A stretch of DNA of 64,000 nucleotides from a virus. Lineage: Duplodnaviria; Caudoviricetes. The stretch is from the IMG/VR virus record IMGVR_UViG_3300042883_001293; one strand, 5' to 3'. The notes beneath the pieces are model-generated. The model had not been told where the DNA came from. It was given only the letters and a program-made list of their open reading frames with translations, and made no database searches. The position numbers were made by a program, and so were the translations under genes. Below are positions 22,459-22,929 of this stretch, in pieces (the first letter of the stretch is position 1; the number at the start of each line of letters is the position of its first letter).

Positions 22459-22929
22459 ATGCTCAAAGGCACCGAACTCGTTTCTAAAGTGACCACCATG
22501 CAGGCACAAGAACCGCCCGCCAAGATGTCTGACATCGTTCGGGAATGTGGTTATGAGATTGACGGCAAACTCAAGTATACTCAGTTCTATACTGAACTGC
22601 TGGATGCAAAGGGTCTGCTGAACAAACCAGAACCCACAGAGATCTCCGAGGAGTATCAGGAAACCTACGATCGCCTCTGTGGTGATTATGGACAGGATGC
22701 TGTCAATGCTTTCCTGGACATCTGGGAAGAAAGCGATCTTCATGGGTTCGAAGATGCCTACCAAGGACGTTATGAGGATGGTGCAGACTTTGCAGAACAG
22801 TTTACAACTGACTGCTACGGTTTGAATGTTCCTTCGTTCGTGGTGATTGATTGGCAGGCAACATGGGATCAGGGACTGTGTTATGATTACGAGTTCGTGA
22901 ATGGATTCGTATTCGTGAACGCCTGGTAA
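22459..22929 (+). CDS. fusion of a cyAbrB-like N-terminal domain and an ArdA-like acidic DNA-mimic domain
   Basis: LKGTELVSKV...IVRECGY...FYTELLDAKG; FEDAYQGRYEDGADFAEQF...VPSFVVIDWQATW...GFVF. Confidence 0.65.
   Translation: MLKGTELVSKVTTMQAQEPPAKMSDIVRECGYEIDGKLKYTQFYTELLDAKGLLNKPEPTEISEEYQETYDRLCGDYGQDAVNAFLDIWEESDLHGFEDAYQGRYEDGADFAEQFTTDCYGLNVPSFVVIDWQATWDQGLCYDYEFVNGFVFVNAW

What the first reader, a model, noticed from the sequence alone, without database searches (positions are those of the whole stretch)
22459..22929. cyAbrB N-terminal domain fused to an ArdA-like DNA mimic
Seen: the N-half LKGTELVSKV...RECGY...FYTELLDAKG recalls the N-terminal domain of cyanobacterial AbrB-like regulators (LTGxxLLxKV...CGY...FxxALxxAxG); the C-half is acidic with ArdA-like FEDAYQG.Y....FAE...ID. 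Known: cyAbrB proteins carry their DNA-binding domain at the C-terminus, and ArdA mimics DNA to inhibit type I R-M. Inference: replacing the DNA-binding domain with a DNA mimic could make a dominant-negative trap for host cyAbrB regulators, or a multimerised antirestriction protein.
Basis: inference. Interest (0 to 1): 0.62.

Follow-up and report, generated by a model that had tools for sequence, protein, structure and literature searches.

The report
ArdA-type DNA mimic with cyAbrB head
A cyanophage early gene encodes a chimera: the part of the ArdA DNA mimic that blocks type I restriction enzymes, with its dispensable first domain replaced by the conserved, functionally unexplained N-terminal module of the cyanobacterial global regulators cyAbrB.

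Summary
ORF 22459-22929 (+) encodes a 156-aa protein, net charge -21, conserved in over 340 metagenomic and phage proteins.

Residues 1-55 are homologous to the N-terminal domain of true cyAbrB regulators, meaning proteins with a C-terminal PF14250 AbrB domain. Profile-profile comparison gives 99.5%, E 2e-23. The predicted folds superpose at TM 0.83.

Residues 57-155 match ArdA domains 2 and 3. The solved ArdA 2w82 is the best PDB match (Z 6.6). Comparison with a plasmid ArdA gives hhalign 95.8%. The essential VF motif is kept, and the net charge is -20.

ArdA domain 1 is absent, and the literature reports it as dispensable for antirestriction.

The most likely function is an early antirestriction DNA mimic against host type I R-M. 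HsdS domains occur in 74 of 151 picocyanobacterial genomes sampled. What the cyAbrB-type module adds is unknown.

A heterodimer prediction gave no answer.

The same module is fused to other proteins and also stands alone in phage P-TIM68. The scan noted the same design on another genome. I found no paper describing it. I rate it a new variant of a known kind, of moderate interest.

The parts
22405..22433 (+). sigma-70-type promoter-like site TTGACA-17 nt-TACATT (10 of 12, TG before the -10), 26 nt upstream of the ATG
   Evidence: Consensus match only; function inferred.
22427..22443 (+). conserved -10/leader element CTACATTACATTTGTTC, also found before the two preceding small genes (22180 exact; 21909 with 2 mismatches)
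   Evidence: 4 matches in the window against 0.5 expected. This suggests single-gene early-type transcription units.
22446..22451 (+). Shine-Dalgarno-like GAGGGA, 7 nt before the ATG
   Evidence: read directly from the sequence
22459..22929 (+). whole ORF, 156 aa plus stop; net charge -21, pI 4.05
   Evidence: 343 relatives, mostly 155-158 aa. AF2 model with mean pLDDT 91.
22459..22623 (+). residues 1-55: cyAbrB-type N-terminal module. Helix 4-15, helix 23-29, short hairpin 33-38, helix 40-50. Conserved L2, G4, L7, C30-G31-Y32, F43-Y44. Net charge -1.
22624..22644 (+). residues 56-62: linker of lower model confidence (pLDDT about 65), variable in length among relatives
22645..22758 (+). residues 63-100: helical part (helices 64-77, 79-88, 91-100) equivalent to ArdA domain 2
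   Evidence: (model 57-155 aligned to 2w82_A 52-165)
22759..22926 (+). residues 101-156: alpha/beta part equivalent to ArdA domain 3. Includes FEDAYQG..DFAEQF, the IDWQA stretch (residues 130-134; aligned to FDYEA of plasmid ArdA, the region that carries ArdA's antirestriction motif and dimer interface) and the VF motif.
   Evidence: PMC2731889
22909..22914 (+). V151-F152, counterpart of the essential ArdA 'VF motif' in the last strand, four residues from the C-terminus. F152 is invariant in 31 relatives.
   Evidence: PMC2731889

Best explanation
The gene encodes a two-part chimera made early in infection by a T4-like cyanophage.

Shown. Residues 57-155 are a divergent ArdA core, equivalent to domains 2 and 3. 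This part is strongly acidic and keeps the VF motif and the ID(W/Y)xA stretch of the dimer-interface region. Residues 1-55 are a homolog of the N-terminal domain of the cyanobacterial cyAbrB regulators. They stand where ArdA has its beta-rich domain 1.

Inferred. The core dimerises through its domain 3, as ArdA does. It mimics the DNA held by the methyltransferase core (HsdM2-HsdS) of host type I restriction-modification enzymes. It thereby protects unmodified phage DNA on entry.

Also inferred, and more weakly. The near-neutral N-module is not part of the DNA-like surface. It acts as a protein-protein handle that makes the same contacts as in host cyAbrB, either self-association or docking to a shared cyanobacterial partner. 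That would concentrate or multimerise the mimic at the nucleoid.
For: - ArdA core, sequence: phrog_36653 'anti-restriction protein' 3.6e-17 over residues 64-148. Pfam PF07275 hits residues 79-146 at model positions 81-148, 11 of 20 related C-halves (best 3e-7), and many close relatives in precomputed tags.
- ArdA core, profile: hhalign of the C-half family against an IncI plasmid ArdA gives 95.8%, E 8e-9. Residues 79-154 align to ArdA 88-166, with GFVF/GHVF and IDWQA/FDYEA aligned. A relative's C-half finds annotated plasmid ardA genes at 37% identity.
- ArdA core, structure: the model has pLDDT 91. 2w82 ArdA is the top Foldseek hit (prob 0.96). It is also the only VIA match with Z over 5: Z 6.6, rmsd 3.0 over 96 residues, model 57-155 to ArdA 52-165.
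- Charge: the C-half is -20, against -18 for ArdA 62-166. The N-module is -1, against -7 for ArdA domain 1.
[quoted passage not shown] Domains 2 and 3 bind the MTase core. The VF motif and the dimer-interface motif are essential (PMC2731889).
- N-module: as listed under the observation check.
- Early expression: own promoter-like site and repeated leader element. The gene sits in a block of small genes upstream of the baseplate module. The position is syntenic in relatives.
- A target exists: HsdS domains (PF01420) were found in 74 of 151 genomes sampled from the picocyanobacterial family that carries the matching cyAbrB.
Against: - No activity has been measured for this protein. I found none for any cyanophage ArdA-like protein in the papers searched.
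- The protein itself is below Pfam's ArdA cut-off (19.8 against 27 bits).
- PDB sequence searches do not reach 2w82.
- Z 6.6 is only a moderate structural score.
- The antirestriction motif is only partly conserved, and dimerisation was not tested.
- The role given to the N-module is pure inference. Its fold gives only weak matches to tri-helical HTH domains (best Z 5.0).
- The host of this uncultured phage fragment is not known, so whether that host has a type I system is also unknown.
Confidence: 0.6

Rival explanations
1. Anti-cyAbrB device, the first reader's 'trap' made more specific. The N-module lets the phage protein join host cyAbrB dimers or oligomers. The attached DNA mimic then occupies the AbrB DNA-binding domains nearby. 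This strips the nucleoid-associated cyAbrB from DNA, relieving silencing of the AT-rich phage genome or rewiring host transcription. Type I restriction would be a secondary target or none.
For: - The N-module is a true homolog of the cyAbrB N-domain and keeps the nearly invariant CGY and FY residues.
- cyAbrB1 and cyAbrB2 interact physically. cyAbrB2 behaves as a nucleoid-associated protein that coats long low-GC tracts and represses genes there, including insertion elements (PMC11368403).
- This phage is very AT-rich: 36% GC overall and 28-31% in the structural genes.
- Phages also carry the module with no DNA-binding or mimic part. P-TIM68 gp074 is 52 aa, in the same genome as an ArdA-like gene that lacks the module. 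A 56-aa example lies on a metagenome contig.
- The module is also fused to other phage domains, for example Kyano_Gp96. This suggests it has a job of its own during infection.
Against: - No evidence here or in the papers read shows that the cyAbrB N-domain is the surface through which cyAbrB proteins associate.
- Nothing shows that ArdA-type mimics bind AbrB-type swapped-hairpin domains.
- Retention of ArdA's essential parts in exact register is explained more simply by the known ArdA target.
- Other cyanomyoviruses have ArdA-like proteins without the module, so the mimic works, whatever it does, without a cyAbrB handle.
Confidence: 0.2
2. DNA-tethered mimic. The N-module is a small tri-helical HTH-like DNA-binding domain, so the protein sits on DNA, phage or host, and holds the antirestriction part next to it.
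For: - The best structural neighbours of the isolated N-module are mostly tri-helical HTH DNA-binding domains (AraC family, sigma factor domains, TetR, Tc3 transposase), at Z 3.1-4.3 over about 45 residues.
- An earlier scan note on another genome proposed this reading (e1-5669680).
Against: - All those Z values lie in the range the tool describes as a common arrangement.
- A hairpin is inserted between the second and third helix, unlike a tight HTH turn.
- The module is near-neutral to acidic: net -1, pI 5.2, family mean -2.3.
- The third helix reads TQFYTELLDAK, with no basic recognition face.
- In cyAbrB the DNA-binding role is already assigned to the C-terminal AbrB domain.
Confidence: 0.08
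3. Ordinary full-length ArdA. The N-half is only a diverged ArdA domain 1, and the cyAbrB likeness is chance.
For: - The total length (156 aa) and the register of the Pfam match (residue 79 at model position 81) resemble a full ArdA.
- For one relative the Pfam envelope spans 23-153.
Against: - hhalign to cyAbrB N-domains gives 99.55%, E 2.3e-23.
- The predicted N-module is helical, whereas ArdA domain 1 is a three-stranded sheet with one short helix (PMC2731889).
- The structural alignment to 2w82 covers ArdA 52-165 only.
- The N-module model superposes on a PF14250 cluster at TM 0.83, rmsd 1.3.
Confidence: 0.02

Closest known systems
ArdA antirestriction proteins (Pfam PF07275; Tn916 Orf18, PDB 2w82; ColIb-P9/IncI plasmid ArdA)
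   Same: - Domains 2 and 3: fold (Z 6.6) and sequence profile (95.8%).
- VF motif near the C-terminus and the ID(W/Y)xA stretch of the interface region.
- Charge of about -20 over the core.
- Similar total size, and carriage by a mobile element that must pass host restriction.
   Different: - No ArdA domain 1; a helical cyAbrB-type module replaces it.
- This sequence is below Pfam's cut-off.
- The antirestriction motif is only partly kept.
- It is carried by a lytic cyanophage rather than a plasmid or ICE.
- Activity is untested.
cyAbrB regulators of cyanobacteria (Sll0359/cyAbrB1 and Sll0822/cyAbrB2 of Synechocystis; picocyanobacterial homologs such as P0186, with Pfam PF14250 at the C-terminus)
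   Same: The N-terminal module of about 55 residues: MLTG..LL.KV...CGY...FY..LL.AKG, 49% identity at profile level, and the same predicted fold.
   Different: - It lacks the C-terminal AbrB swapped-hairpin DNA-binding domain, so it is not a cyAbrB.
- The hairpin is about 5 residues shorter, and there is a QAQEPPAK insert after helix 1.
Cyanophage proteins already annotated 'antirestriction protein' (phrog_36653; Synechococcus phages DSL-LC07, WH11-B, 7B11-B; the S-B28 and S-CBP1 homologs are annotated 'hypothetical')
   Same: The same two-part design. Full-length alignments run at 27-32% identity. DSL-LC07 begins MLKGDALV...AGY...FYTELLNARG. The host cyAbrB N-domain itself finds the S-B28, WH11-B and 7B11-B genes at 54% identity.
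   Different: These are podoviruses with a longer middle part (192 aa in DSL-LC07). Their records name only the antirestriction part. I found no record or paper that mentions the cyAbrB-type module.
ArdA-like proteins of other cyanomyoviruses (S-PM2p068, S-TIM5 gp038, P-TIM68 gp061)
   Same: The same ArdA-like C-half, at 37-51% identity over residues 65-156.
   Different: Their N-terminal 40-60 residues are unrelated acidic helical segments without the LTG/CGY/FY signature. P-TIM68 encodes the module separately as gp074.
Phage and island proteins that counter nucleoid-associated silencers: T7 gp5.5, the T4 Arn DNA mimic, and H-NST truncated H-NS (named from my own knowledge, not tested here)
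   Same: Analogy only, for the rival reading: a DNA mimic or a DNA-binding-domain-less copy of a host NAP that interferes with that NAP.
   Different: No sequence or fold relation was shown. The target would be cyAbrB rather than H-NS, and no interaction data exist.

Membership tests
ArdA (PF07275) | Score above Pfam's gathering cut-off (27 bits) | tested here: not met
   19.8 bits, E 1.3e-3, residues 79-146 only. Many relatives at 72-76% identity carry the precomputed PF07275 tag, and 11 of 20 related C-halves hit at E<0.01.
ArdA (PF07275) | Three-domain monomer with an N-terminal beta-sheet domain 1 (Tn916 ArdA residues 3-61) | tested here: not met
   Residues 1-55 are predicted helical and are homologous to cyAbrB N-domains. 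The structural alignment covers ArdA 52-165 only. The domain definition comes from PMC2731889.
ArdA (PF07275) | Domain 2 (helical) plus domain 3 (three strands, three helices) in linear arrangement | tested here: met
   2w82_A: Z 6.6, rmsd 3.0, 96 residues, and the only match with Z over 5. It is the top Foldseek hit at prob 0.96. hhalign to plasmid ArdA gives 95.8%. This rests on a predicted model.
ArdA (PF07275) | Essential VF motif in the middle strand of domain 3 near the C-terminus | tested here: met
   V151-F152 align with V-F of GHVF in plasmid ArdA. F152 is invariant and V151 is at least 90% conserved in 31 relatives.
ArdA (PF07275) | Antirestriction motif / dimer interface (Tn916 residues 126-140, with Y137 and I138) and dimer formation | tested here: inconclusive
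   FVV--IDWQATWD aligns with VALYFDYEAYARD. D131 and W132 are invariant. Only part of the motif is kept, and dimerisation was not modelled.
ArdA (PF07275) | Dense negative surface charge that mimics the DNA backbone | tested here: met
   Net -20 over residues 56-156, against -18 for ArdA 62-166. The family range is -18 to -27. The spatial pattern of the charges was not analysed.
ArdA (PF07275) | Inhibition of type I restriction-modification enzymes | not testable with these tools
   Needs an in vivo restriction-alleviation or in vitro binding assay.
cyAbrB (cyanobacterial AbrB-like regulators) | Conserved N-terminal domain (LTG..LL.KV...CGY...FY.ALL.AKG) | tested here: met
   hhalign 99.55%, E 2.3e-23. 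The profile search recovers PF14250 proteins. Fold TM 0.83 to a PF14250 cluster.
cyAbrB (cyanobacterial AbrB-like regulators) | C-terminal AbrB-type DNA-binding domain (PF14250 / PF04014) | tested here: not met
   There is no PF14250 or PF04014 hit even at E<=10. The C-half is ArdA-like. It is therefore not a cyAbrB and shares only the N-module.

The most novel reading that the evidence does not exclude
The cyAbrB N-terminal domain is the self-association or docking surface of these cyanobacterial nucleoid-associated regulators, and cyanophages have captured it as a portable address tag. Fused to an ArdA-type DNA mimic as here, or made alone as in P-TIM68 gp074, it would insert into host cyAbrB assemblies and disable them. 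That would lift silencing of the AT-rich phage genome. It would be the first anti-nucleoid-protein weapon described in cyanophages, and the first functional assignment for the cyAbrB N-domain.
Probability: 0.17. Interest if true: 0.8.

Novelty: new variant of a known kind. Interest (0 to 1): 0.55.

Why it matters
cyAbrB proteins occur in every cyanobacterium. One paralog is essential in Synechocystis, and they act as global regulators or nucleoid proteins. In the papers I read, their N-terminal domain has no assigned function.

This work shows that the domain is an autonomous, mobile module. Cyanophages use it in several settings: on an ArdA core, on Kyano_Gp96-like proteins, and alone. That gives a concrete handle for finding what it binds.

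For phage biology it shows how a DNA-mimic antirestriction protein can be rebuilt. The two domains that bind the methyltransferase core are kept, and the dispensable domain is swapped for a host-lineage-specific one.

The family is abundant in marine metagenomes (over 340 clusters). It is annotated at most as 'antirestriction protein', so the chimeric nature is hidden in current annotation.

If only the ordinary reading holds, this is a lineage-specific ArdA variant of modest importance.

Tried and rejected
- Complex prediction of the phage N-module with a picocyanobacterial cyAbrB N-domain (alignments A1 and A3): score 0.03 against a mark of 0.32. The verdict was no answer, and the controls were not run. 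This counts neither for nor against binding.
- PDB sequence searches with the protein, the family profile, the N-half profile and a broad C-half profile: no significant hit, and 2w82 was not reached. The weak EfeB/deferrochelatase and calmodulin rows (E 0.03-1) were treated as chance.
- Fold search with the N-module alone against 48,161 PDB representatives: best Z 5.0, to a photosystem I subunit. The rest were Z 3-4.3 tri-helical HTH domains. No fold assignment was made.
- NCBIfam and PADLOC: no model hits the phage protein, a cyAbrB, or the standalone module. The ESM Atlas feature search restricted to named clusters gave no usable hit.
- Pfam has no model for the N-module. PF14250 starts inside its last helix.
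- A second copy of the N-module in the 67.9-kb phage record: none found, but the record is about 32% complete.
- The 65-aa 'standalone' hit P0123 lies on a 597-bp contig with an overlapping downstream ORF. It is probably a frameshifted fusion, so it was not counted as standalone.
- Literature searches for cyAbrB with phage, AbrB with ArdA, cyanophage with AbrB, and ArdA with cyanophage found nothing describing this fusion. The library holds open-access papers only.
- The antisense ORF 22432-23016 (194 aa) was rejected as a gene. All homology support is on the + strand.
- The tree of N-modules has 59 columns and mostly unresolved forks. It shows only that the ArdA-fused modules group together, with moderate support (88/71). 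No donor or direction of transfer is claimed.

Full report
**What is there**

The window is most of a 67.9-kb IMG/VR virus record, estimated 32% complete. It belongs to a T4-like cyanomyovirus. A baseplate wedge gene (phrog_219, E 8e-204) lies at 32340-34202, followed by giant structural ORFs. DNA matches are to Synechococcus and Prochlorococcus myoviruses.

The finding's ORF runs from ATG 22459 to the stop at 22927-22929 on the + strand and encodes 156 aa. It lies in a block of small + strand genes. It has its own promoter-like site, TTGACA-17-TACATT, at 22405-22433. It also has a leader element, CTACATTACATTTGTTC, that recurs before the two preceding genes, and a GAGGGA ribosome-binding site. 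A tRNA-Leu(TAA) follows at 23076-23161.

The protein is conserved. 343 proteins match at E<=0.01, nearly all 155-158 aa and starting ML(T/K)G. The gene sits in the same place, downstream of a GIY-YIG endonuclease gene, on other contigs.

**The C-half is an ArdA core**

- PHROGs assigns residues 64-148 to phrog_36653, 'anti-restriction protein', at 3.6e-17.
- Pfam ArdA matches residues 79-146 at model positions 81-148 of 155. The score is below the cut-off, 19.8 against 27 bits.
- Many relatives at 72-76% identity carry the PF07275 tag. 11 of 20 diverse related C-halves hit it, best 3e-7.
- A relative's C-half finds annotated ardA genes on over 3000 enterobacterial plasmids at 37% identity.
- The C-half family profile aligns to one such ArdA with 95.8% probability, E 8e-9. 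Residues 79-154 align to ArdA 88-166, with FEDAYQG/FRDAWWG, DFAEQF/AFAVEF, IDWQA/FDYEA and GFVF/GHVF in register.
- The AlphaFold2 model has mean pLDDT 91. Its best Foldseek match in the PDB is the solved ArdA 2w82, prob 0.96.
- ArdA is the only VIA-align match above Z 5: Z 6.6, rmsd 3.0 over 96 residues. That alignment covers model residues 57-155 and ArdA residues 52-165.
- By the authors' domain definition this is ArdA domain 2 (62-103) plus domain 3 (104-165) (PMC2731889).
- Net charge of residues 56-156 is -20, against -18 for the same part of plasmid ArdA.

**The N-half is the cyAbrB N-terminal module**

A profile of residues 1-58 from 28 relatives was searched against 1.84 billion representative proteins. 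It found 141 proteins at E<=1e-3.

- 19 of them have the ArdA-like C-half.
- At least 33 have an AbrB-type C-terminus by a local HMM.
- Five of five tested carry Pfam PF14250 'AbrB-like' at 1e-12 to 1e-30, behind the matched N-domain.

These are picocyanobacterial genes. One of them finds 557 loci in Prochlorococcus, Synechococcus and Cyanobium genomes.

The reciprocal test used the phage N-halves against the N-domains of 22 such cyAbrB proteins. It gives hhalign 99.55%, E 2.3e-23, 49% identity over 49 columns.

The isolated N-module folds confidently, with pLDDT 90: helix, helix, short hairpin, helix. It superposes on an ESM Atlas cluster that is 100% PF14250 at TM 0.83, rmsd 1.3 over 54 residues.

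L2, G4, L7, C30-G31-Y32 and F43-Y44 are invariant or nearly so across phage and host versions.

The module has no Pfam, NCBIfam or PADLOC model and no clear match among solved structures. ArdA domain 1 is a three-stranded sheet with one short helix. The N-half is therefore a replacement of that domain, not a diverged copy.

**How it most likely works**

[quoted passage not shown] They conclude that the key step is binding of the type I methyltransferase core by domains 2 and 3. Domain 3 forms the dimer, and the VF motif and interface motif are essential (PMC2731889).

The phage protein keeps the parts that ArdA needs for antirestriction and has exchanged the part that is not. I therefore think it is an early antirestriction DNA mimic.

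A target is plausible. HsdS specificity domains (PF01420) were found in 74 of 151 genomes sampled from the picocyanobacterial family that carries the matching cyAbrB.

These steps are inferred, not shown. No activity data exist, dimerisation was not modelled, and this uncultured phage's host is unknown.

**What the N-module adds is open**

The module is near-neutral (-1), whereas ArdA domain 1 is -7. It is unlikely to extend the DNA-like surface.

It is an autonomous module with many partners:

- divergent ArdA-like cores in myoviruses and podoviruses;
- Kyano_Gp96 (PF23790, sub-threshold at 26.6 against 27 bits) and a DnaJ domain;
- membrane-anchored AbrB proteins and tandem copies;
- the module alone, as in P-TIM68 gp074 (52 aa) and a 56-aa metagenomic gene.

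P-TIM68 also has an ArdA-like gene without the module 3.3 kb away. That is the split form of the fusion.

In a poorly resolved tree, the ArdA-fused modules group together with the two Gp96-fused ones (support 88/71) and apart from most host modules. This is compatible with one old fusion but does not prove it.

**The rival reading**

The literature reports that cyAbrB1 and cyAbrB2 interact. It also reports that cyAbrB2 coats long low-GC tracts and represses genes there, like a nucleoid-associated silencer (PMC11368403). This phage is 36% GC overall and 28-31% GC in its structural genes.

The N-module could dock the mimic onto host cyAbrB.

I could not test it. The heterodimer prediction gave no verdict. 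Nothing I read shows that the N-domain is the interaction surface.

A DNA-tethering reading, with the module as an HTH, has only weak fold neighbours. The module's charge and the composition of its third helix argue against it.

**Comparison and novelty**

The protein is not a canonical ArdA. It lacks domain 1 and scores below the Pfam cut-off. It is not a cyAbrB either, because it has no AbrB domain. It is a chimera of the ArdA functional core with the cyAbrB N-module.

Relatives are already annotated 'antirestriction protein' in some phage records and in PHROGs, so the ArdA side is known. I found no record or paper that mentions the cyAbrB-type module in phages.

The scan itself noted the same design on another genome (e1-5669680).

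I rate it a new variant of a known kind, with interest 0.55. The anatomy is solid and gives a testable route to the function of the cyAbrB N-domain. The function of this protein is inferred only.

Noticed in passing
window 20962-21196 and 22932-23058: 12 of the 13 ACGAGAT heptamers in the window, all on the + strand, fall into two clusters. These clusters bracket the block of small genes 21363-22929 that ends with this gene. 5.4 heptamers are expected in the whole window, and 0 of 100 shuffles reach 13. The second cluster fills the spacer between the gene's stop and the tRNA-Leu promoter. No function is known. Another first-stage note (e1-5377397) covers it.
   Followed up: partly
window 24001-28000 versus 32001-60000: There is a strong GC contrast inside one phage fragment: 55.9% GC at 24-28 kb and 42-45% at 20-24 and 28-32 kb, but 28-31% across the structural genes. 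The gene studied here is 47.8% GC. The early small-gene region looks compositionally host-like, and the late region is very AT-rich.
   Followed up: partly
window 23040-23161: tRNA-Leu(TAA) at 23076-23161 has a near-consensus promoter-like site, TTGACA-17-TATACT (11 of 12), at 23040-23068. A mirror-image site lies on the - strand at 23035-23007. The tRNA is 88-92% identical to tRNA-Leu of other cyanomyoviruses.
   Followed up: no
window 19768-20514 (-): A GIY-YIG/HNH-type homing endonuclease gene (phrog_3404, 4e-36) lies on the opposite strand just upstream of the small-gene block. The same gene holds this position in related contigs.
   Followed up: no
L007:801-959 (Prochlorococcus phage P-TIM68, gp074) and L005:1363-1776 (gp061): P-TIM68 encodes the cyAbrB-type N-module alone (52 aa, with TGY in place of CGY). 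It also encodes an ArdA-like protein without the module, 3.3 kb upstream. This is a split counterpart of the fusion.
   Followed up: partly
proteins P0213, P0227, P0239, P0243, P0245, P0214, P0147, P0205 (hits): The cyAbrB N-module occurs in further architectures: behind N-terminal transmembrane segments, with or without an AbrB domain; before a DnaJ domain (PF00226, 4e-16); and before a Kyano_Gp96-like domain (PF23790, sub-threshold at 26.6 against 27 bits). Some short or odd hits, for example the RecR- or DapF-like tails of P0254 and P0138, may be assembly or frameshift artefacts.
   Followed up: partly
window 34204-46587 and 48185-55234: Two giant ORFs of 4127 aa and 2349 aa lie in the structural region downstream of the baseplate wedge gene. 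They were not examined.
   Followed up: no
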